Assembly: GCA_964610055.1 (NCBI GenBank)
Contig: CAZSUC010000001.1
Span: 588,977 to 652,976, forward strand
Origin: an uncultured Candidatus Saccharibacteria bacterium
GTDB lineage: Bacteria > Patescibacteriota > Andersenbacteria > UBA10190
Length of the DNA: 64,000 bases
Direction: 5' to 3'
The translations under genes and the position numbers were made by a program. A model generated the notes under the pieces. It did no database searches and had not been told where the DNA came from. It saw nothing but the letters and a program-made list of their open reading frames with translations. Positions 31,660-61,466 of this stretch are shown here, piece by piece. Every line of letters begins with the position of its first letter. Positions within the stretch are counted from its first letter, which is position 1.

Positions 31660-33930
31660 ATGTCGCCTTTTTCTCGTCCTTACTTTGCCTTATTAATTGT
31701 TAGCGCTTTAGCGCTCTGGCCGCTTTTTTTCGGCCGTTTTTACGGTATTGGCGATACACGCTCCGTTTATATTCCCATCGAGCATTTTTTTGCTGAGCAA
31801 CAACGGCACTTTAATTTACCGGCCTGGATGCCAGACACTGCTTGGGGTTTTCCGGTAATTGCTTCTGCTCAAATCGGTTTCTTTTATCCGCCTCTTTTAC
31901 TGACACGCTTCTTACCTATCTTTATTTACCTGCCGTTATTACTCTGGCTCCACATCTTTTTTCTCGGTATCGGCGCCTATCGTTTGGCCCGAACCCTAAA
32001 TATTAGTCAAAACGGCGCCCTGATTACCGCCCTATCCATTGCTCTTAACGCCTTTCTTTGGCAGCACTTAACCCACCTAAACATTATTTTTGCTTTGGCT
32101 TGGTTTCCTTGGCAATTACTCGCCGCTCATTACTTAGCCAGATCACATCGACCTAATTTCAAACAATTTGCCGGCTTAGTTTTCACTTTAGGCCTCCCGT
32201 TTTTAGCTGGCCAACTTCAAGTTCCTTTTCTCACCGCTCTTTTCTCTACCATTTATTATTTCGTTTCTTTACCCAAAAAGCCTTTCCCCTCTCGACATCT
32301 CCTCATTTTCCTCGGCGCAACTCTTTTGACTATTACTCTCACCGCCGTCCAAACATTTCCCACCCTAGAGCTCACATTCCTTTCCAGCCGTGGATCAACT
32401 AATGAATTTTCTTTGGAACGAGCTAATCAACATAGTTTTCCTATTTATCATCTACCCACCTTACTTTTTCCACGCTTTTTCGGCTCAGATAATACTTATT
32501 GGGGGAAACGTATTGAAATAGAATACGGCTTTTTCTTCGGCGTCATTCCGCTATGCCTCAGCTTTATTGCTATATTCAACAAATCACGTCGTTACCGTTT
32601 CTGGATTATCAGCGGCTTCATAGCTTTTCTGTTAAGCCTGGGCGAATTTTCTCCTTTTCGCTTAGTTGGCTTAGAGCCATCGCTCTGGTACTTTTCTGCT
32701 CCCGCCCGTTGGCTATTCTTCACCGTTTTTTCTGGATCAATCCTTGCTGGTTTTGGTTATGATCTTTTGCCTAATATCTCACCTCGTTACCTGCGCATCC
32801 TTAAATCAACTATTGTAACCATATTAAGCTGCGTCATTTTATATAATCTCGTCCTTTGGCTCTTGCCGGAAAATTTTGCTTCTTATGTTCTAACCTGGTT
32901 GCAATCACAAAATCTCACCGGCGCTCGCGATTCAGCCTATTATTTAGATAAGATTAATTCCTTACTCTCCTCTGCAAAACACACGGGCTTATCACTTGCT
33001 TCGCCATATACTTACATCACTCTCATTCCTTTGCTCGCCATTCCATGGCTCTTCCAAAAACATCACTCGTGGCTTATTCCTCTCACAGCTATTGAACTCA
33101 TCTTAATTGCCAGTACGGCCAATCCAAGTGTTACTTGGTCCAATATTCTAACTCCTCCTGCCAGCATCTCTGCCCTTCCTCAAAGTGTTACCAGCGATCA
33201 CGCTCGCATCATTTCAATCTCAGCTCCCGGCGATACAGGGCTTTGGCTAACTAACCCTGAAACCCGTGCCGATACCGCTCGTCGCGAACAATATCGTCAA
33301 CAACTCGAACCACTCACTCACTCACTTTTTAATCTTGCCGGTTCTCAATGGCCCGCCTCGCTGGATCTACAATCTCAGGCACATACTTTAGAAAATTTAC
33401 TCGAATCACGCCAAGATCAACTATACATTGATTCTGACAAAGCCGCTGCTCTCAATATCGGTGCTGCCTTAATTGCCAACGAAGCTCCCCACACTGTTTC
33501 AGAAGTACTACCCCAAAATATTGCACCGAATATCTTCTTGTATTCCTTCTCTCCTCAACCTCGCGCTTCTCTTTTAACTGAAGACCAAACCGAATTAGCG
33601 CTTCCATACGACAACACTAATCCTAATCACCAAACTTATACCCTCTCATCATCTACTCCCGCGACCCTTATTATTCGCGACACCTGGTACCCTGGTTGGC
33701 AAGCCACACTTGACGACCAACCCGTTAACATTGATACCTATAACAATATTTTCCGTTCTGTTTCGGTTCCCTCCGGATCACATACCGTTTCTTTCACCTA
33801 TCATCCTACTTGGCTTTATTACGGTCTAGCTATTTCGCTTACCACTCTTGGTTTTCTAATATTTGTGCTGATGTACAATAATCATATCTACACTGTTCCC
33901 TTTATTTTAAGGAGGAAGACCATTGGCTGA
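31660..33930 (+). CDS. YfhO-family polytopic membrane protein
   Basis: 756 aa. Contains NLPAWMPDTAWGFPVIASAQIGFFYP, and the C-terminal RDTWYPGWQATLDDQPVNIDTYNNIFRSVSVPSGSHTVSFTYHP plus a terminal TM. Confidence 0.75.
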   Translation: MSPFSRPYFALLIVSALALWPLFFGRFYGIGDTRSVYIPIEHFFAEQQRHFNLPAWMPDTAWGFPVIASAQIGFFYPPLLLTRFLPIFIYLPLLLWLHIFFLGIGAYRLARTLNISQNGALITALSIALNAFLWQHLTHLNIIFALAWFPWQLLAAHYLARSHRPNFKQFAGLVFTLGLPFLAGQLQVPFLTALFSTIYYFVSLPKKPFPSRHLLIFLGATLLTITLTAVQTFPTLELTFLSSRGSTNEFSLERANQHSFPIYHLPTLLFPRFFGSDNTYWGKRIEIEYGFFFGVIPLCLSFIAIFNKSRRYRFWIISGFIAFLLSLGEFSPFRLVGLEPSLWYFSAPARWLFFTVFSGSILAGFGYDLLPNISPRYLRILKSTIVTILSCVILYNLVLWLLPENFASYVLTWLQSQNLTGARDSAYYLDKINSLLSSAKHTGLSLASPYTYITLIPLLAIPWLFQKHHSWLIPLTAIELILIASTANPSVTWSNILTPPASISALPQSVTSDHARIISISAPGDTGLWLTNPETRADTARREQYRQQLEPLTHSLFNLAGSQWPASLDLQSQAHTLENLLESRQDQLYIDSDKAAALNIGAALIANEAPHTVSEVLPQNIAPNIFLYSFSPQPRASLLTEDQTELALPYDNTNPNHQTYTLSSSTPATLIIRDTWYPGWQATLDDQPVNIDTYNNIFRSVSVPSGSHTVSFTYHPTWLYYGLAISLTTLGFLIFVLMYNNHIYTVPFILRRKTIG

Positions 33931-34126
33931 TGACAAAGACCAAGACGAACGAAACCGACGACTTACAGAAGCCCTTGCGCCGTTAGGGCGAGGCGAGCTT
34001 CCTGACGGTACACCCATTGACCTAGCCGCCATCTCTGAACGTGCAAATCGGAAAGCCTGGATTTTTGCGCGCCGGCTTAGAGATAGCGCAGTACGTGACA
34101 ACCGCCGATACAAGGGTCAACACTAG
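33923..34126 (+). CDS. Small hypothetical protein (67 aa), paralog of 34285-34476
   Basis: TTG start lies 7 nt after GGAGG (33911-33915). It shares ERNRRLTEALAPL...IDLAAISERA with the second copy, and a perfect terminator follows. Confidence 0.5.
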   Translation: MADDKDQDERNRRLTEALAPLGRGELPDGTPIDLAAISERANRKAWIFARRLRDSAVRDNRRYKGQH

Positions 34127-34284: not shown

Positions 34285-34476
34285 TTGGATAATGAAAACG
34301 AACGAAACCGACAACTTACCGTGGCTCTCAATCCATTAAGGACAGGTCTATCATTATCTGACCTCTCCGCAATCGCTGACCATGCCACAGACGACGCCAT
34401 GTCGCATGCCAAAGCAGTTCGTTCAGGAACAGCAAGGACCAGAGCTAAACACAGGTTAGGCCCATACAAAGGCTGA
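34285..34476 (+). CDS. Small hypothetical protein (63 aa), paralog of 33923-34126
   Basis: TTG start lies 8 nt after GGAGG (34272-34276). It carries ERNRQLTVALNPL...LSDLSAIADHA. A 20-nt stretch, gaacgaaaccgacNacttac, is shared between the two copies (33947-33966 and 34300-34319). Confidence 0.5.
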   Translation: MDNENERNRQLTVALNPLRTGLSLSDLSAIADHATDDAMSHAKAVRSGTARTRAKHRLGPYKG

Positions 34477-55500: not shown

Positions 55501-57273
55501 TTACCTTTTTAAAACTGCTAAATACGCTTCCGGCGGAATATCCACTGAACCATGTTCGCTCATACGCTTCTTCCCTTTTTTCTGCTTTTCTAATAATTTG
55601 CGCTTACGTGAATAATCACCACCGTACAAATGTCCCGTGACATCTTTCCGCATTGCCGGCAAAGTTTCCCGCGCGACAATACTTCCTCCAATCGCTGCTT
55701 GCAAAGGTACTGCAAATAATTGCCGCGGTAATACTTCCTTTAATTTCGCTACCAGGCGCCTGCCTGTTGCCTCTGCCTTACTACGCGCCACAATTACCGC
55801 CAGTGCTTCTACCTCCACTTTATTCACTAACAAAGACAGCTTCACCACCTCGGCCGGTCGCCACTCTTTCATCTCATAGCTCATTGAGCCATACCCCGCT
55901 GTCACTGACTTTAATTTGTCATAAAAATCAACCACTAATTCACGCATCGGTATTAAATAGGTTAACTGCACCCGCTCCCCCTCTAAATGCTGTTGATTTA
56001 CAATTTCCGCTTCTCGATCCTGCATTACTTCAAAGACGGCTCCCATGTACCCAACTGGCGTTAAAATATCAACCTGAGCATACCGCTCTTCAATCGCTTC
56101 AATCTGAGATGGGTCCGGAAATTCTACCGGCGTCGCCGCTTCCATATCCTCACCGTTTCGCAACTTAATTCGATACGCCACACTCGGAGTCGTAATCACT
56201 AAATCTAAATTATATTCTCGACGTAAACGCTCTTGAATAATTTCCATATGCAGCATCCCTAAAAATCCACATCGAAACCCTTGTCCTAAAGCTTCGCTTC
56301 TCTCTTGTAATGCCGTTAGGCTCGCATCGTTTAACATCAATTCACTAATCGCATCTTTTAATAAGGGAAAATCATCACCCCGAGCAGGAAAAATTCCGGC
56401 AAACACTTTGGGCTGCGGAATTCTAAAACCCGGCAAAGCTTGTAAACCTGACCGCCGACTTGCCAAAGCAATCGTATCGCCCACCCGCGCTTGTCGCACG
56501 TCTTTTAACCCCGTTGCTATATATCCAATTTCTCCCGCATCAATCATTTGATCAGGATGCCATTCGGGTGCAAATGAACCAACTTCCACTGCCCGATCAG
56601 TCGCCCCTGTCCCTAGAAAAATCACTTCATCTCGTGCTGATACTTTACCTTCTATGACCCGCACGTAAGTTACAACTCCTTTATAATCATCGTACACAGA
56701 ATCAAAAATAAGGGCTCGCAAAGGCTTAGTATTGTCCTGCTGTGCCGCCGGTATTCGCTGCACCACTGCATCCAAAACTTCTTTGACTCCTTCTCCTGTC
56801 TTAGCTGAAATCTTGAGAATATCAGTCGCCTTGCCACCCAATAAAGCGAGTATCTCTTGAGTGACTCGCGGTACATCTGCTGCCGGTAAATCCACTTTAT
56901 TAATCACTGGAATAATCTCCAAATTATTCTCAATCGCAAAATACAAATTAGAAATAGTTTGCGCTTGCACACCCTGGGTTGCATCCACCAGTAATACGGC
57001 TCCCTCCACCGCCTGCAAACTCCGACTCACCTCATATTGAAAATCAACATGACCCGGCGTATCAATCAAATTCAGCATGACCCCATTCCACTGCATGCGC
57101 ACTGGCTGTAACTTAATTGTAATTCCCTTTTCCCTCTCTAATTCCATTGAATCTAATAGCTGTGCTCGCATCTTCCGACTCTCCACTGTTCCGGTCAGCT
57201 CTAACATCCGGTCGGCTAAAGTCGACTTCCCGTGATCCACATGCGCAATAATGCAAAAATTACGTATCTCCAT
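55501..57273 (-). CDS. lepA: Elongation factor 4 (LepA)
   Basis: MEIRNFCIIAHVDHGKSTLADRMLELTG... with DTPGHVDF and NKVDL. The start is set at ATG 57273. The ORF-track extension to 57387 runs through a terminator hairpin. Confidence 0.9.
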   Translation of the reverse strand: MEIRNFCIIAHVDHGKSTLADRMLELTGTVESRKMRAQLLDSMELEREKGITIKLQPVRMQWNGVMLNLIDTPGHVDFQYEVSRSLQAVEGAVLLVDATQGVQAQTISNLYFAIENNLEIIPVINKVDLPAADVPRVTQEILALLGGKATDILKISAKTGEGVKEVLDAVVQRIPAAQQDNTKPLRALIFDSVYDDYKGVVTYVRVIEGKVSARDEVIFLGTGATDRAVEVGSFAPEWHPDQMIDAGEIGYIATGLKDVRQARVGDTIALASRRSGLQALPGFRIPQPKVFAGIFPARGDDFPLLKDAISELMLNDASLTALQERSEALGQGFRCGFLGMLHMEIIQERLRREYNLDLVITTPSVAYRIKLRNGEDMEAATPVEFPDPSQIEAIEERYAQVDILTPVGYMGAVFEVMQDREAEIVNQQHLEGERVQLTYLIPMRELVVDFYDKLKSVTAGYGSMSYEMKEWRPAEVVKLSLLVNKVEVEALAVIVARSKAEATGRRLVAKLKEVLPRQLFAVPLQAAIGGSIVARETLPAMRKDVTGHLYGGDYSRKRKLLEKQKKGKKRMSEHGSVDIPPEAYLAVLKR

Positions 57274-57333
57274 AGAATACCGCCCAGCATACCAATTCAC
57301 GCCCTTTTCGCCAATATCTCTCTTGTTCATCAT

Positions 57334-57384
57334 AAAAAAACGCCCCAAGGACAATCCGACCGGGCCATCGGGAAAGCCTTGGGG
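57334..57384 (-). terminator. Intrinsic terminator / attenuator immediately upstream of lepA
   Basis: The minus strand forms CCCCAAGG-(26 nt)-CCUUGGGG followed by CG and U7 (A-run 57334-57340 on the + strand). Confidence 0.55.
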
Positions 57385-57485
57385 CACACATGAAGGAACA
57401 ACGCAACAGGGTAAAGAGAGCTATGCGCATGGCACCAGCCGCTCGGTCTCAACTTAAACCACACGCATAGCCCACACGTAGTTTT

Positions 57486-57513
57486 ATCATATCCCGCCTA
57501 CTCCAGATGTCAA
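57486..57513 (-). promoter_or_regulatory. Sigma70-like promoter (proximal)
   Basis: On the minus strand, TTGACA (57513-57508), a 16-nt spacer and TATGAT (57491-57486). Confidence 0.45.
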
Positions 57514-57519
57514 CCAAAG

Positions 57520-57557
57520 AAAAAAACCGCCGAAAAGCGATTGTGTGGCACGGCGGG
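57520..57557 (-). terminator. Intrinsic terminator-like element (distal), with competing or pseudoknotted helix
   Basis: The minus strand forms CCGCCG-(18 nt)-CGGCGG followed by U7. The loop contains GCCACAC, which pairs with the upstream GUGUGGC (57562-57568). Confidence 0.45.
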
Positions 57558-57644
57558 AGAATATCGCCACACAAAGAGCTTTTCGACGGCAACCGGGAAA
57601 GGGTAATCTCGCATCTCTTGCAAATTTGAGTCACCATTCTCAAG

Positions 57645-57662
57645 CTAGCCCGGCGGAGTCAT
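57645..57662 (-). other. Mini-ORF MTPPG-stop with consensus SD
   Basis: AAAGGAGG, a 6-nt spacer, then ATG ACT CCG CCG GGC TAG on the minus strand. Confidence 0.3.
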
Positions 57663-57846
57663 GTACGACCTCCTTTCTAAAATGAGATCAGCCGACAGAC
57701 AACGCAAGGGGCCCTACCAACTTCAAAAAAAGAAAGAAAAAGAGAACAATATAACCGCCCGGAGGGGTTCATGAGAACCTACTTGGGGCACTAGCAGTCC
57801 CCTACAACACCCTCCAGACGGCTCGCACGACAGGTGCTGTTAAGTT

Positions 57847-57875
57847 CTTATACTCTTACCCGCTTTTTTTGTCAA
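57847..57875 (-). promoter_or_regulatory. Sigma70-like promoter (distal)
   Basis: On the minus strand, TTGACA (57875-57870), a 17-nt spacer and TATAAG (57852-57847). It lies just downstream of the murJ stop. Confidence 0.45.
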
Positions 57876-57896
57876 CGGTCAAATTATCGTCTACCC

Positions 57897-59519
57897 TTAT
57901 TCCAACATTCCACCAAACCTTGGCGTCTCGGTCCCTGCATCTAATTTAACTTTCCATTTCCGCGGCAAATATTTTCGCAACACTTCTAACTCCTCACATC
58001 GGAATAACATACATAACCCTAAATAGGCCATTGCCCCGCCTACAAAGGCTCCAACCATCTGTACGCTCACACCCCAAAACCGCGTCATATTCACCCAAGG
58101 CTCAATTGCATACTTTAATCCTTGTACCACCATACCAGCCAATCCGCTCGCCACCGCGATCCTGATCATACTTGCCACCACCGCTTTATCATCAAACCCA
58201 TTCAGTTCTATATGCAGTTTTCCTAGCAATAACACCAAAGTTATAATCGCTGATGCCGAAAAAGCCAAGGCCAATCCTTCCACCCCCATACGCGGCGACA
58301 ACCAAATTGCCAATCCAATATTCGCCGCCATACTAATCAAAGAAATAACAACTGGTGTTGCTGTATTTTGTCTGACATAAAAAGCCCTAATCAACAACGG
58401 AGCGGCTGCTTGAGCAAATAAACTAACCAACAATAGACCTAAAATTGAATACGTCATAATAGTATCATTCCAATCAAACGCCCCATCACCAAACAAAACT
58501 CGCACAATTTGAGCGCGTAATAAATAAGCAAAAGCCGCGGTTGGTACTGTTAAAAAGATAATATAACGAAATGTTCGCGTTAGCGTCATCCGAAAATCTT
58601 TCGCCTGCTTCCGCGCCCATTGTTCGGCTAATGTTGGAAAAGCCGCTTGCGCAAATGCCAATCCAAAAATACCCACCGGTACGCTTTGAATGTTATTCGC
58701 CAAATGAAATGTCGCAATACTGCCAGCCGAAAGAGTCGAGCCAATAATGGTTACTAAAAACAAATTCATTTGTTGGCCTGCCATACCAAACATTCTCGGT
58801 ATAATCATCCGCCGTAAAGTTTTTACGTCTTTTGATTTCCATTTCATAACCGGACGCCACCGCCATCCCAACCGCCAAACACTCGGCAATTGAACTAAAG
58901 CATGCAAAGCTGCTCCTAACACCACCCCCCATCCTAACCCCGCCACTCCTAACCATGGCACCAGCCACACCACACCAACAATAATACCGATGTTGTAAAC
59001 AATCGGAGCCAACGCATACGCCACAAATCGCTTAAATGAATTCAGCACCCCTGAAAACATAAAGCTAATACTCAATAAAATTGGCTGTAATGCCATTATG
59101 CGAGATAAAGTGATCGTCATTTCTAACTTATCTCCCATAAAACCAGGTGTAATTAAAGGCACAATCCAACGCGCCCCTAATGCATATCCTGCGCTCAACA
59201 CTATCACTGTTAACAACACAATATTTAAGACCGACAAAGAGAAGTCAAAGGCCTCCTCATGATTACCTTTTTTACCTTTAACTAATTTCTCCGTAAACAA
59301 CGGAATGAAGGCTGCCGATAAAGCGCCCATCACTACTAAATTAAAAATCAAATCCGGCAAACGGAAAGCTGCAACAAACGCATCAAAAATATCGCCGGCC
59401 CCAAAAGTCGTAGTCATCACCCGTTCCCGTAACAACCCCACGACACGCGACCCTAACGACGCTACCGAGAGCCACAAAGCTGCTGAAATTAATTTTTGTG
59501 TATTGCCGTTCTTAATCAC
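57897..59519 (-). CDS. murJ: Lipid II flippase MurJ (MviN family)
   Basis: LGSRVVGLLRERVMTTTFGAGDIFDAFVAAFRLPDLIFNLVVMGALSAAFIPLF matches the MurJ N-terminus. 540 aa and polytopic. Confidence 0.9.
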   Translation of the reverse strand: MIKNGNTQKLISAALWLSVASLGSRVVGLLRERVMTTTFGAGDIFDAFVAAFRLPDLIFNLVVMGALSAAFIPLFTEKLVKGKKGNHEEAFDFSLSVLNIVLLTVIVLSAGYALGARWIVPLITPGFMGDKLEMTITLSRIMALQPILLSISFMFSGVLNSFKRFVAYALAPIVYNIGIIVGVVWLVPWLGVAGLGWGVVLGAALHALVQLPSVWRLGWRWRPVMKWKSKDVKTLRRMIIPRMFGMAGQQMNLFLVTIIGSTLSAGSIATFHLANNIQSVPVGIFGLAFAQAAFPTLAEQWARKQAKDFRMTLTRTFRYIIFLTVPTAAFAYLLRAQIVRVLFGDGAFDWNDTIMTYSILGLLLVSLFAQAAAPLLIRAFYVRQNTATPVVISLISMAANIGLAIWLSPRMGVEGLALAFSASAIITLVLLLGKLHIELNGFDDKAVVASMIRIAVASGLAGMVVQGLKYAIEPWVNMTRFWGVSVQMVGAFVGGAMAYLGLCMLFRCEELEVLRKYLPRKWKVKLDAGTETPRFGGMLE

Positions 59520-59522
59520 ACC

Positions 59523-61466
59523 TTATTGCCTTTCTAAAACCGCCCCTACCAACACGTCTTGGTTAAGCTCTCCTCGATAAACCAACTCTTGGCTGCTTGT
59601 TGTTGTAATTCCGTCATGAGGGATAGTATGCACAATCCCTATGTTTTCGGGAAGCCGTATTTCTACTCGCACTTCTGTTCGATTATCACCTGGTTGTTTT
59701 ACTACATAAGTTTCGTATCTCTCTGCTGGATCTAACAAATCCGGTAAGTCCGCTGCGCCCGGTAATCGATAGCGGTAAATTCCCACTGTCGTTGCTCCCG
59801 GTTTAGTTATCATCCAATTAGCAAAAAACTTATATCCACTTTCTTGACCAATCACCGTGCCGCTAACATCCGCCACTTGCGCTCGTTGCCATTCCGCTAA
59901 ATCAGGATCAGCCGTTAATTCCTCTGGCAATTCTGGAAAATCATATCGCGGCACATCTGCAGCTTCTGTAAAACCTCGTGCCTCTATTAACTCTGCCTCA
60001 TCCGGTACTAATACTCGCTGCCAAACTACATTATCTTTATACGCTGGGTTTTCGCCATCAGGATATTCACGATCCAATATCTCTTCCGGACCCCGATGCG
60101 TTCGCCTAATCGTAACTGTCACTTCCACATCGCCATTGCTTTGCACATCGCTGCGATAATCAATCTCTTGATCCATAAACTGATCACTCTTATGCCCTCC
60201 AATATTTGTATTATTTACATAAAGCAAGCCTAACTGTTCCTCAGGCAACTCTCCACTCCAATTTAACTCATGTACTCGCGCCTGTTCCTCTGTTCTTGTT
60301 AAATTAACTAATAAACTTTTTTTCTGAATTGCATTATTCATGACATTTAACACATCTAATACTGCTTTCGAATCTTGTGCGAACACTCGATTCAACAAAA
60401 CCGGCGTTAAGTCAGCCAAAAATTGTTTCGGCCGATTAACTTCTTTATCGTAATCATATGTCACCTCGTCTTGAGTTAGCGCAATGAAGTTATCCTCATC
60501 CACCGTCACGTTATAAGTTGGCATTTCAATTGGACCAGTAATCGCTAACAAATCTTGAATAATCTCTGGAGTAATTGCAATGACTCCATCCACCTTTGAT
60601 CCACCCTCCTTTTCCCAAAACGACTGAATTTTCTCTGCACTTAAGTCAAAATCAACAAACCAATTAGCATCTCGTAAGTACCATCTATCCGTAATTCCTC
60701 GCATCGGATCAGGTGGTGCAATATATTCTTTTAATTGTCCGTCCGGATCATATACTGTTTGCACATCTACTTCTTCCACCTGACCTCGACTAACATTTAC
60801 CACTCCTAGACTTCCAATAAATCCACCTGTTGGCCGCAATTCATGATTGTTTTGAAACACTAACAAATAACGTCGATCTTCTTGCGCTCCTAAAACTGAT
60901 AACAATAAATCACTTTGTTCATTGAAAGATTGAATTGATGCTAATAATTCTGGCACTACTTCTTTCAACATTTGCGCAGGCTCTTTTACGGATGCTGGCA
61001 ACAACAAAGTATTAACGCCATTTAAGTTTTCGACTGCGTCTTCCAACGCCGCTTGTGCCACTCCCATATTCTCTTGTGTAATCTCCAGCGCGCCAACCAA
61101 AGTCCTTTCCGACTTTTGATTACTACCGATTACCGACCCACTTGAAGCCATTAAAACAGACAACGCTTCCGTAACTCTCTGCCCTGCCTCAGTTACACTT
61201 TCCGCTGCCGCTAACATATTATCGCCTGAACGGACTGTGCCTGTAACATCTAAAGTTTCTAGAACTAATCGCGATGCTGATAAAGCATCCCGCAGTTGCT
61301 CTCGCGCTTCCATCAATTGCTCCTTGGCGTTAGCAAAATTTTCACTCCCAGTTTCAAAATCGCTTTGCGATACCGCCGCCTGCGCAGCTGCCACTTCATT
61401 CAAAGCCTCTTTCGTGCGTCTAATAATTGGGCCAATTGCAACATACCCTCGACCCAAAGCTTGCAA
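59523..61466 (-). CDS. DUF4012 domain protein (as annotated from TTG 61466; probably lacks its true N-terminus)
   Basis: YLLVFQNNHELRPTGGFIGSLGVVNV is the DUF4012 hallmark. The frame stays open upstream to 61547 and encodes a TM helix (LVSNALILIIGCGIGWLAL) with no canonical start codon. Confidence 0.8.
   Translation of the reverse strand: MQALGRGYVAIGPIIRRTKEALNEVAAAQAAVSQSDFETGSENFANAKEQLMEAREQLRDALSASRLVLETLDVTGTVRSGDNMLAAAESVTEAGQRVTEALSVLMASSGSVIGSNQKSERTLVGALEITQENMGVAQAALEDAVENLNGVNTLLLPASVKEPAQMLKEVVPELLASIQSFNEQSDLLLSVLGAQEDRRYLLVFQNNHELRPTGGFIGSLGVVNVSRGQVEEVDVQTVYDPDGQLKEYIAPPDPMRGITDRWYLRDANWFVDFDLSAEKIQSFWEKEGGSKVDGVIAITPEIIQDLLAITGPIEMPTYNVTVDEDNFIALTQDEVTYDYDKEVNRPKQFLADLTPVLLNRVFAQDSKAVLDVLNVMNNAIQKKSLLVNLTRTEEQARVHELNWSGELPEEQLGLLYVNNTNIGGHKSDQFMDQEIDYRSDVQSNGDVEVTVTIRRTHRGPEEILDREYPDGENPAYKDNVVWQRVLVPDEAELIEARGFTEAADVPRYDFPELPEELTADPDLAEWQRAQVADVSGTVIGQESGYKFFANWMITKPGATTVGIYRYRLPGAADLPDLLDPAERYETYVVKQPGDNRTEVRVEIRLPENIGIVHTIPHDGITTTSSQELVYRGELNQDVLVGAVLERQ

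What the first reader, a model, noticed from the sequence alone, without database searches (positions are those of the whole stretch)
57274..57896. A ~620-nt G-rich, highly structured non-coding region upstream of lepA with two promoter-terminator units
Between murJ and the conserved LepA N-terminus (MEIRNFCIIAHVDHGKS at 57273) the strand bias is lost and the minus strand shows the following elements.
- A TTGACA-N17-TATAAG promoter at 57875-57847.
- A 12-bp helix, CCGUCUGGAGGG/CCCUCCGGGCGG, enclosing two hairpins (GGGGAC..GUGCCCC and GGUUC-UCAU-GAACC). This three-way junction spans about 57755-57822.
- A pyrimidine tract.
- An SD plus mini-ORF.
- Helices GUGUGGC/GCCACAC and CCGCCG/CGGCGG, which are either mutually exclusive or form an H-type pseudoknot, followed by U7 (57520-57568).
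- A second promoter, TTGACA-N16-TATGAT, at 57513-57486.
- A long helix GCUAUGCG..CGCAUAGC at about 57416-57462.
- A CCCCAAGG..CCUUGGGG plus U7 terminator (57334-57384), about 60 nt before the lepA ATG.
I could not match the region to RNase P, tmRNA, SRP, 6S or any riboswitch class by eye. It is either two independent small RNAs of about 330 and 140 nt, or a tandem-attenuator leader for lepA. No lepA-specific cis-regulator is known to me.
Basis: partly seen in the sequence, partly recalled or inferred. Interest (0 to 1): 0.65.

Follow-up and report, generated by a model that had tools for sequence, protein, structure and literature searches.

The report
Pro-Pro mini-ORF island upstream of lepA
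The 620-base gap before the lepA gene of this tiny-genome (Andersenbacteria) bacterium is real, folded and matches no known RNA family. The only part kept across relatives is a 4-8-codon mini-gene ending in Pro-Pro-stop and followed by a transcription terminator, which is most likely a ribosome-stalling sensor rather than a new structured RNA.

Summary
The 623-nt murJ-lepA gap folds far better than shuffles (z -4.6) and has no Rfam, tRNA/tmRNA or Pfam match.

The gap is not a conserved lepA leader. In Candidatus Andersenbacteria relatives, murJ and lepA are adjacent, separated by about 90 nt, separated by two inserted protein genes, or not neighbours at all. Only five genomes carry a long spacer, and those spacers are almost unalignable.

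One element survives in four of the five. It is a Shine-Dalgarno-led mini-ORF ending in Pro-Pro-(Gly)-UAG: MTPPG*, MHPP*, MRECRHPP*, MMTSGVPP*. Its Pro codons vary synonymously, its indels are in frame, and it always uses the rarest stop codon. It sits 10-50 nt upstream of an intrinsic terminator. Joint chance is about 2e-12.

The GC-rich "three-way junction" is not conserved. It caps a long A/U-rich hairpin after murJ.

The second unit is a strong promoter, a 15-bp hairpin, a linker and a terminator. It keeps its layout only in the nearest relative. lepA has its own conserved proximal promoter.

Best reading: a fast-evolving island whose functional core is a proline-stall mini-ORF plus terminator, of the leader-peptide type. 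An effect on lepA is inferred, not shown.

The parts
57716..57879 (-). Long hairpin just after the murJ stop codon. An A-rich arm (57871-57844) pairs with the pyrimidine tract (57747-57724). Probably the murJ 3' hairpin or a leaky terminator.
   Evidence: MFE and centroid agree, z -2.47. The 3' end CGGGCGGUUAUAUUGUU resembles the 3' end of T1, CGGCGGUUUUUUUCUU (D2). L167 has a reduced version of this hairpin as its whole 90-nt murJ-lepA gap. It is not conserved in L161, L164 or L172.
57847..57875 (-). Promoter-like site P1: TTGACA, 17 nt, TATAAG.
   Evidence: Read directly from the sequence. Not reported by the scan because the -10 lacks the final T. By my reading of the relatives' sequences, comparable TTGAC(A/T)-16/17-TA.AA. 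sites follow murJ in L161, L172 and L164; the scan itself lists only the L172 site (TTGACT-16-TATAAT, 11/12). Function not shown.
57669..57674 (-). Shine-Dalgarno sequence AGGAGG, 6 nt upstream of the mini-ORF start codon.
   Evidence: Only 7 of 51 longest-ORF starts in the window have any SD-like core, so a perfect SD is unusual here.
57645..57662 (-). Mini-ORF ATG ACT CCG CCG GGC TAG, encoding MTPPG*. This is the conserved Pro-Pro-stop element.
   Evidence: Homologous SD-led mini-ORFs: L171 MHPP*, L164 MRECRHPP*, L172 MMTSGVPP*. All end in TAG. Pro codons are CCG CCG, CCA CCG and CCC CCC, and the indels are in frame. It is the only such ORF among 58 SD-led mini-ORFs in the window. Elsewhere there are 3 among about 570 in 2.36 Mb. 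Shuffles give 1-8 per 5000 per spacer, for a joint P of about 2e-12.
57520..57590 (-). Intrinsic terminator T1: a 23-bp interrupted hairpin (57590-57526) followed by U7.
   Evidence: ORF nucleotides GCCGGG pair with CCCGGU, which lies 1 nt from the base of T1 in the MFE.
57486..57513 (-). Promoter-like site P2: TTGACA-16-TATGAT, an 11/12 match, starting 6 nt after the T1 U-run.
57418..57473 (-). Hairpin HP1 of unit 2, with a 15-16 bp stem.
   Evidence: It is conserved in L171 503-553. Of 15 pairs, 9 are invariant, 5 change on one side, 1 changes on both sides and 0 are broken. The single-sequence covariance model finds L171 495-569 at E = 0.069 and nothing in L161, L164 or L172.
57386..57417 (-). 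Single-stranded pyrimidine-rich linker of unit 2, containing ..UUCCUUCAU..
   Evidence: Unpaired in both the MFE and the centroid. L171 has a 24-nt linker with UUUCUUCAU at the same place.
57334..57385 (-). Intrinsic terminator T2: GCCCCAAGG../..CCUUGGGGC (57385-57342), then G and U7 (57340-57334).
   Evidence: A terminator with a different sequence sits at the same position in L171 (GCCGCCUUAGAGGG../..CCCUCAAGGCGGC plus U5CU4).
57286..57314 (-). lepA-proximal promoter P3: TTGGCG, 17 nt, TATGCT, ending 12 nt before the lepA ATG (57273). There is no SD.
   Evidence: The blocks GGTATGCT and GCGGTATTCTATG are identical in L171, while the surrounding sequence differs. It scores only 8/12 against consensus and so was not listed by the scan. 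Promoter-like hexamers also lie directly before lepA in L161 and L172.

Best explanation
The spacer is a lineage-specific, fast-evolving intergenic island built from terminator-bounded modules. It is not one structured RNA.

**Module 1.** A large hairpin closes the murJ transcript.

**Module 2.** This is the functional core: a translated mini-ORF (AGGAGG-N6-AUG ACU CCG CCG GGC UAG). Its Pro-Pro end, read with Gly or a UAG stop codon in the A site, is a slow step for the ribosome. The mini-ORF lies 50 nt upstream of a very stable intrinsic terminator, T1.

Proposed mechanism (inferred): a ribosome parked on Pro-Pro keeps the ORF nucleotides (GCCGGG) from pairing with CCCGGU at the foot of T1. 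Ribosome dwell time would then depend on EF-P, prolyl-tRNA or RF1 capacity. That dwell time would set how much transcription stops at T1 and how much runs on into the downstream units and lepA. This is a leader-peptide-type sensor of translation stress.

**Module 3.** A promoter-to-terminator unit of about 145 nt with two hairpins, resembling a small-RNA gene. It is shared only with the nearest relative.

**lepA.** It is transcribed mainly from its own proximal promoter, with an almost leaderless mRNA. The upstream modules can therefore only modulate lepA, not drive it.

**Shown:** the anatomy, the absence of a known family, and selection on the mini-ORF.
**Inferred:** that ribosomes stall there, that T1 read-through is regulated, and that lepA is the target.
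For: **The mini-ORF is conserved amid unalignable sequence**
- It is present in 4 of 5 long spacers, with SD spacing of 6-8 nt and a C-terminal PP (PPG in the window).
- All four end in TAG, although TAG is the rarest stop in the window (9 of 51).
- The Pro codons differ synonymously.
- Length differences are in-frame indels: 3 nt between the window and L171, 12 nt between L164 and L171.

**It is rare by chance**
- In the window, 1 of 58 SD-led mini-ORFs has this form. In 2.36 Mb of other loci, 3 of about 570 do.
- Shuffles produce it 1-8 times in 5000 per spacer, for a joint P of about 2e-12.

**A terminator follows each copy.** Distance from the stop codon to the terminator:

| Genome | Distance |
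|---|---|
| L171 | 10 nt |
| L172 | 14 nt |
| L164 | 14 nt or less, to the U-run |
| Window | 50 nt |

- In L172 the order is mini-ORF, terminator, about 65-90 nt, then lepA.
- ORF nucleotides pair next to the base of T1 in the window's MFE.

**Support from the literature**
- A C-terminal Pro-Pro interferes with translation termination (PMC2998420).
- Polyproline stalls change the efficiency of an intrinsic terminator in an EF-P-dependent way (PMC5021804).
- uORF-plus-terminator attenuators control other translation-factor genes, such as vmlR (PMC9226507).

**Known families excluded:**
Against: - No antiterminator was found. When a ribosome footprint is imposed on the Pro-Pro site, the terminator hairpins still form in all four genomes, and the footprint does not overlap the stems.
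- In the window and in L171, a promoter, a second unit and a second strong terminator lie between T1 and lepA. lepA also has its own conserved promoter.
- The distance from the mini-ORF to lepA varies from about 100 nt to more than 570 nt.
- L161 has an SD-led short ORF at the same position without Pro-Pro (MPRDSPVFTR*).
- PP-stop mini-ORFs are not enriched upstream of lepA in 170 other loci.
- Only five genomes were available, and there are no expression data.
- The PP pattern was defined after seeing it, which inflates the P-value.
Confidence: 0.4

Rival explanations
1. The spacer holds two free-standing small genes with no cis effect on lepA. One is a 200-400-nt transcript (own promoter to T1) carrying the Pro-Pro-stop mini-ORF, possibly a dual-function or ribosome-trapping RNA. 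The other is a 145-nt trans-acting small RNA (P2 to T2). They simply sit in the murJ-lepA gap.
For: - Each unit has a promoter-like site and a strong terminator.
- By my reading of the sequences, TTGAC(A/T)-16/17-TA.AA. sites recur after murJ in L161, L172 and L164; the scan lists only the L172 one.
- lepA has its own conserved promoter.
- The terminators look constitutive.
- The distance to lepA is variable.
- The unit 2 helix keeps pairing through 7 substitutions.
Against: - No function is known for a stand-alone 4-8-codon PP-stop gene.
- Unit 2 is found only in the nearest relative, and there without a recognisable promoter.
- In every case seen, the island sits at the same murJ-lepA junction.
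- In L172 the mini-ORF and terminator lie directly in front of lepA.
Confidence: 0.35
2. The spacer is non-functional filler at a recombination or insertion hotspot. It is decayed or inserted DNA retaining only generic terminators and chance promoter-like sites, and its apparent structure comes from those terminators.
For: - The junction is highly variable among relatives: adjacent genes, a 90-nt gap, inserted protein genes, and PIF1 and GIY-YIG genes upstream of lepA in L173.
- The spacers are nearly unalignable.
- Counts of promoter- and terminator-like sites are not above shuffles.
Against: - The PP-stop mini-ORF is retained with codon-like variation across otherwise saturated sequence.
- HP1 substitutions all preserve pairing.
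- There is no protein-coding remnant: six-frame tblastn against the relatives and a Pfam scan both found nothing.
- There is no second copy in the window.
- These genomes are compact, so 620 nt of filler would be unusual.
Confidence: 0.15
3. The spacer is a new ligand- or protein-binding structured RNA (riboswitch-like), with the GC-rich three-way junction acting as the sensor of a tandem attenuator for lepA.
For: - The junction helix is stable and GC-rich.
- Two terminators lie in series upstream of lepA.
- No known family matches.
Against: - The junction is absent from L161, L164 and L172, and is reduced to a simple hairpin in L167.
- It lies 165 nt upstream of T1, with a translated mini-ORF in between.
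- No alternative pairing with either terminator was seen.
- lepA has its own promoter.
Confidence: 0.05

Closest known systems
uORF-plus-intrinsic-terminator attenuators upstream of translation-factor-type genes. Examples are B. subtilis vmlR (PMC9226507) and streptococcal msrD (PMC10314930). From my own knowledge, also Listeria hflXr and Tn916 tet(M), which is an EF-G paralogue like LepA.
   Same: An SD-led short ORF whose ribosome occupancy is the signal, followed by an intrinsic terminator, upstream of a gene for a ribosome-binding factor.
   Different: In those systems the uORF overlaps an anti-antiterminator, the terminator is conditional, and no promoter separates it from the gene. Here no antiterminator was found, and a promoter, another unit and a second terminator intervene. 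The stall signal here is intrinsic (Pro-Pro-stop) rather than drug-induced.
Proline-codon leader ORFs mgtL and mgtP of Salmonella mgtA/mgtCBR (own knowledge), and the engineered polyproline-pyrL terminator reporter (PMC5021804).
   Same: Proline codons in a leader ORF couple translation speed (EF-P, prolyl-tRNA) to transcription termination downstream.
   Different: Those ORFs are 17 or more codons long and act through defined alternative stem-loops or Rho. Here the ORF has 4-8 codons, the prolines are the last residues before UAG, and the downstream gene is lepA.
Termination stalling at a C-terminal Pro-Pro (the YbeL-PP type cited in PMC2998420) and at Pro-stop in TnaC (PMC8429421).
   Same: Peptidyl-Pro-Pro-tRNA in the P site with a stop codon in the A site is a known slow-release configuration. 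The window variant, PPG, is a classic EF-P-dependent motif (own knowledge).
   Different: The known cases are experimental constructs or a 24-residue, ligand-dependent arrest peptide. Stalling of these 4-8-residue natural peptides has not been tested.
The internal PPP motif of E. coli LepA (PMC4176338).
   Same: It links LepA output to proline-stall relief by EF-P. [quoted passage not shown]
   Different: In E. coli the motif is inside the protein. The window's LepA has IPAAQQ at that position and only one PP, at residue 580. The Pro-Pro element here is a separate upstream mini-ORF.
Trans-acting bacterial small RNAs (promoter, stem-loop, single-stranded seed, intrinsic terminator), as a comparison for unit 2.
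   Same: A strong promoter, two hairpins, a pyrimidine-rich unpaired linker and a U7 terminator.
   Different: It is conserved in only one relative, and no target or chaperone is known. It is not in Rfam.

Membership tests
Any Rfam 15 family (RNase P, tmRNA, SRP, 6S, riboswitches, leaders) | Covariance-model score at or above the family's gathering threshold | tested here: not met
   There were 0 hits in the whole window at the gathering threshold. In the permissive scan of 57150-58000 the only hit was mir-4867, at 21.9 bits against a threshold of 93. Nothing was found in the relatives' spacers. ARAGORN found no tRNA or tmRNA.
Leader-peptide (ribosome-dependent) transcription attenuator | A short ORF with a ribosome-binding site, conserved among relatives | tested here: met
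   An SD 6-8 nt before ATG, in 4 of 5 spacers. Rare by chance.
Leader-peptide (ribosome-dependent) transcription attenuator | Conserved regulatory (stall) codons within the ORF | tested here: met
   Pro-Pro immediately before UAG (or before Gly-UAG) in all four, with synonymous Pro codons. That ribosomes actually stall was not tested.
Leader-peptide (ribosome-dependent) transcription attenuator | An intrinsic terminator downstream of the ORF | tested here: met
   A hairpin plus U-run lies 10-50 nt after the stop codon in the window, L171 and L172, and a weak hairpin plus U7 in L164.
Leader-peptide (ribosome-dependent) transcription attenuator | An alternative (antiterminator) structure whose formation depends on ribosome position | tested here: not met
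   Constrained folds with a ribosome footprint on Pro-Pro leave every terminator intact. The only link is the pairing of ORF nucleotides GCCGGG with CCCGGU next to the base of T1 in the window.
Leader-peptide (ribosome-dependent) transcription attenuator | The regulated gene lies directly downstream, with no intervening promoter | tested here: not met
   In the window, P2, unit 2, T2 and the conserved lepA promoter P3 all intervene. L172 is closer to the rule, but it also has promoter-like hexamers before lepA.
Leader-peptide (ribosome-dependent) transcription attenuator | Read-through responds to the stall signal | not testable with these tools
   This needs Term-seq, a reporter or in vitro transcription-translation.
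Trans-acting small RNA gene (unit 2, 57480-57334) | Own promoter and intrinsic terminator bounding a 50-300-nt non-coding transcript | tested here: met
   TTGACA-16-TATGAT at 11/12. T2 with U7. No credible ORF.
Trans-acting small RNA gene (unit 2, 57480-57334) | Structure conserved with covariation in relatives | tested here: inconclusive
   The same layout occurs in L171. HP1 is 100% paired, with 5 one-sided changes and 1 two-sided change. With only two sequences, the shuffle control is uninformative. It is absent from L161, L164 and L172.
Riboswitch / cis-regulatory aptamer | An aptamer fold conserved across relatives and coupled to an expression platform | tested here: not met
   The three-way junction is not conserved. 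It shows no alternative pairing with the terminators.

The most novel reading that the evidence does not exclude
The Pro-Pro-UAG mini-ORF is a natural sensor of proline-stall relief or termination capacity (EF-P, prolyl-tRNA, RF1). It would tune expression of elongation factor 4 (LepA) in a lineage of CPR/Patescibacteria. That would make it the first cis-regulator described for lepA, and a functional link between EF4 and ribosomes stalled on proline. It would parallel the internal PPP motif that makes E. coli LepA dependent on EF-P.
Probability: 0.2. Interest if true: 0.7.

Novelty: new variant of a known kind. Interest (0 to 1): 0.45.

Why it matters
**Why EF4 regulation is of interest.** LepA/EF4 is one of the most conserved bacterial proteins, yet its physiological role and regulation remain unsettled. 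I found no report of a lepA-specific cis element.

**What a link would offer.** A selected Pro-Pro-stop mini-ORF next to lepA would give a concrete, testable connection between EF4 and proline- or termination-stalled ribosomes. The organisms concerned have minimal genomes and very few known regulators.

**Value without the lepA link.** A 4-8-codon ORF maintained solely for its C-terminal Pro-Pro-UAG would still be a compact natural stalling module. It also shows that the signal in such "structured intergenic regions" can lie in a tiny ORF rather than in the helices.

**Caveat.** The evidence rests on five genomes and on no expression data.

Tried and rejected
**Known families.** Rfam at the gathering and permissive thresholds, on the window and on relatives, found nothing. 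ARAGORN found nothing. Pfam on the five longest spacer ORFs found nothing.

**Scans for relatives**
They returned only relatives at 57% identity or less, from other phyla.
- nhmmer of the spacer against the first 80 of these loci (the only ones held at that point) and against the rest of the window found no homologue and no second copy.
- Useful relatives came instead from MurJ and LepA protein searches plus exact-protein look-ups.
- The look-up of the closest MurJ (P0002, 84%) gave only 17 nt of flank.

**Alignment.** MAFFT alignments of four or five spacers were unreliable. blastn found only blocks of about 35 nt.

**Decayed-gene idea.** Six-frame tblastn of the spacer against the relatives' loci gave no hit with E below 0.04.

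**Tandem-duplication idea.** Three about 200-nt modules, each ending in a terminator, were compared. Local self-alignment scores were not above shuffles (p 0.07-0.12).

**Covariance model of unit 2.** The single-sequence model found only a marginal hit in L171 (E = 0.069, filters off) and none in the other relatives.

**Wider association.** A test for PP-stop mini-ORFs upstream of lepA in 170 loci from other lineages found no enrichment.

**Steric or antiterminator model.** Constrained folding did not support it.

**Polymorphism.** L161, L162 and L163 are identical across the spacer, so they gave no polymorphism information.
Full report
**1. What is there**

The window comes from a Candidatus Andersenbacteria (CPR/Patescibacteria) genome. 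I infer this from the names that public sources give to the closest MurJ and LepA homologues. The 100%-identical proteins lie on a 698,565-nt contig.

On the minus strand the gene order is DUF4012 protein (59523-61466), MurJ (57897-59519), a 623-nt gap, LepA (ATG at 57273), then rhamnose-pathway genes. The genome is compact. The other apparent large gaps all contain genes, so this is the largest ORF-free stretch in the 64 kb.

**2. The observation**

The region folds much better than shuffles:

| Region | z-score |
|---|---|
| Whole spacer | -4.56 |
| Mini-ORF to T1 | -4.28 |
| Unit 2 | -3.77 |
| 5' hairpin | -2.47 |

Several details need correcting.
- The spacer is not more G-rich than the flanking genes. 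The skew is lost because C rises and A falls.
- The "pyrimidine tract" is the 3' arm of a long A-rich/U-rich helix. The 5' arm of that helix contains the first "promoter", and the GC-rich junction sits at its tip.
- The first terminator is a single 23-bp interrupted hairpin (57590-57526) plus U7. It is not a pseudoknot.
- A third, weaker promoter (TTGGCG-17-TATGCT, 57314-57286) ends 12 nt before the lepA ATG.

**3. Known families**

Rfam gives no match at the gathering threshold anywhere in the window. The permissive scan gives only a meaningless miRNA hit. The relatives' spacers also give nothing. There is no tRNA or tmRNA, and the spacer ORFs have no Pfam match.

**4. Relatives**

LepA-seeded scans of the genome and metagenome collections were saturated by distant phyla, with 57% identity or less. 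Protein searches found many Andersenbacteria MurJ and LepA homologues at 60-87% identity. Twelve exact-protein look-ups then gave their genomic context.

The murJ-lepA junction turns out to be highly variable:

| Locus | Arrangement |
|---|---|
| L168 | murJ and lepA essentially adjacent |
| L167 | 90-nt gap |
| L169/170 | two protein genes inserted |
| L165/166 | other genes after murJ |
| L173, L174 | other genes before lepA |

Only the following have a long non-coding spacer:
- the window;
- L171 (LepA 87% identical; at least 700 nt);
- L161-163 (592 nt);
- L172 (about 600 nt);
- L164 (at least 750 nt).

These spacers are almost unalignable. blastn finds only blocks of about 35 nt, and MAFFT alignments are unreliable. 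The region is therefore not a conserved lepA leader or a conserved structured RNA. The three-way junction is lineage-specific. Its 3' half recurs only as a simple hairpin that fills L167's short gap, which fits a murJ 3' hairpin or terminator.

**5. The conserved element**

Four of the five spacers carry an SD-led mini-ORF ending in Pro-Pro:

| Genome | Sequence | Peptide |
|---|---|---|
| Window | AGGAGG-6-ATG ACT CCG CCG GGC TAG | MTPPG* |
| L171 | AGGAGG-6-ATG CAT CCG CCG TAG | MHPP* |
| L164 | AGGAG-7-ATG CGG GAA TGC AGG CAT CCA CCG TAG | MRECRHPP* |
| L172 | AGGAG-8-ATG ATG ACG AGC GGC GTT CCC CCC TAG | MMTSGVPP* |

Several features point to selection at the coding level.
- The Pro codons differ at third positions.
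- Length differences are multiples of three.
- The stop codon is always TAG, the rarest stop in this genome (9 of 51).
- Such ORFs are rare. In both strands of the window, 1 of 58 SD-led mini-ORFs has this form, and it is this one. In 2.36 Mb of other loci, 3 of about 570 do.
- Dinucleotide shuffles of each spacer give one in 1-8 of 5000 trials, so the joint probability for 4 or more of 5 is about 2e-12. This figure treats the spacers as independent and the pattern was defined after seeing it. It remains far below any reasonable correction.

L161 has an SD-led ORF at the same relative position but without Pro-Pro.

Each PP-stop ORF is followed by an intrinsic terminator:
- L171: 10 nt to an 86-nt hairpin plus U7.
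- L172: 14 nt.
- L164: 14 nt or less to a U7 run.
- Window: 50 nt. Here ORF nucleotides GCCGGG pair with CCCGGU, 1 nt from the base of T1.

**6. The second unit**

P2 (an 11/12 match) is followed by a 15-16 bp hairpin, a 32-nt pyrimidine-rich unpaired linker and terminator T2. L171 has the same layout at 503-652 (z -7.75).

In the aligned hairpin all 15 pairs are standard in both genomes. Five change on one side, one changes on both sides and none is broken. With two sequences this is suggestive, not proof.

A covariance model built from the window alone finds the L171 hairpin only marginally (E = 0.069, filters off). It finds nothing in L161, L164 or L172. Unit 2 is therefore a plausible small-RNA gene, restricted to the window/L171 lineage.

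**7. lepA's own promoter**

Between the window and L171, the blocks GGTATGCT and GCGGTATTCTATG are identical while neighbouring sequence differs. L161 and L172 also have promoter-like hexamers directly before lepA. There is no SD before lepA. lepA is therefore probably transcribed from its own promoter with a leader of about 5 nt, insulated from upstream transcription by T2.

**8. Mechanism**

Established knowledge:
- Pro-Pro at the C-terminus interferes with termination (PMC2998420).
- PPG is a classic EF-P-dependent motif (own knowledge).
- Polyproline stalls alter the efficiency of a downstream intrinsic terminator (PMC5021804).
- uORF-plus-terminator attenuators control other translation-factor genes (PMC9226507).

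On this basis the most likely role of the mini-ORF is a ribosome-dwell-time sensor acting on the terminator that follows it. Its possible outputs are read-through into the downstream unit(s) and lepA.

This step is inferred. Constrained folding with a ribosome footprint leaves all the terminators intact and reveals no antiterminator. In the window, two terminators and two promoters separate the mini-ORF from lepA.

The main rival is that the units are free-standing small genes with no cis effect on lepA. I consider this nearly as likely (0.35 against 0.40).

One parallel is worth noting. E. coli LepA carries an internal PPP motif and is one of the most EF-P-dependent proteins (PMC4176338). The LepA here lacks that motif.

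**9. Novelty**

The architecture (leader ORF, stall codons, terminator) belongs to a known kind. Several aspects are new as far as I could find in four literature searches:
- the extreme brevity of the ORF;
- the Pro-Pro-UAG terminal signal;
- the CPR host;
- the location next to lepA.

Two defining features of classical attenuators were tested and not met: an alternative structure, and direct adjacency to the regulated gene. I therefore file it as a new variant that works like a leader-peptide sensor, not as a demonstrated attenuator.

**10. Verdict**

The interesting signal is the tiny ORF, not the helices. Interest is moderate (0.45), because the sample is five genomes and there are no expression data.

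Noticed in passing
window 57273-57387 (minus strand): The public protein identical to this LepA (P0121) is called as 628 aa, starting at GTG 57387 inside terminator T2. Most close homologues listed are 585-600 aa, and the nearest (L171) starts MEIRNF... like the window's ATG at 57273. The deposited start is therefore probably 38 codons too long.
   Followed up: partly
L172 704-751; L164 5577-5648; L161 5356-5403; L171 19-48: The relatives' spacers hold a second SD-led short ORF upstream of the PP-stop ORF, always beginning ATG-CG. (Met-Arg): MRVRQFSAHNYYLAI, MRVRWLFLEESINCTDTDVAGRE, MRGKLEKRSYCATTS, MRNSNRQSA. Only the SD, the start codon and the first codons are conserved (L164 against L172: 67% over 73 nt). 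No equivalent exists in the window.
   Followed up: partly
L161-L174 (murJ-lepA junction in relatives): The junction is a hotspot of rearrangement in Andersenbacteria. The genes are adjacent in L168. NTP_transf_9 and Na/H-exchanger genes are inserted in L169/170. PIF1 helicase and GIY-YIG genes lie upstream of lepA in L173. Unrelated small genes follow murJ in L165.
   Followed up: partly
window 33923-34126 and 34285-34476 (plus strand): Two paralogous small ORFs (67 and 63 aa) share an N-terminal motif (DERNRRLTEALAPL and NERNRQLTVALNPL). They sit in tandem in what first looked like a 549-nt gap. No function was sought.
   Followed up: no
window, all genes: Only 7 of 51 longest-ORF starts have a GGAG, GAGG or AGGA core within 20 nt upstream. 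lepA itself has no SD and a leader of about 5 nt. SD-independent initiation may be common in this genome, which makes the perfect AGGAGG before the mini-ORF stand out. Start codons were not curated.
   Followed up: no
window 57782-57791 and 57378-57387: An exact 10-nt repeat, GUGCCCCAAG on the RNA strand, occurs in the junction hairpin and at the start of T2. About 0.3 such repeats are expected by chance in 800 nt, so it is probably not meaningful. A wider test for tandem duplication of modules was not significant.
   Followed up: yes
window LepA residue 580 (IPPEA); E. coli LepA PPP motif: The PPP motif that makes E. coli LepA dependent on EF-P is replaced here by IPAAQQ. The only PP in this LepA lies 10 residues from the C-terminus.
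   Followed up: partly
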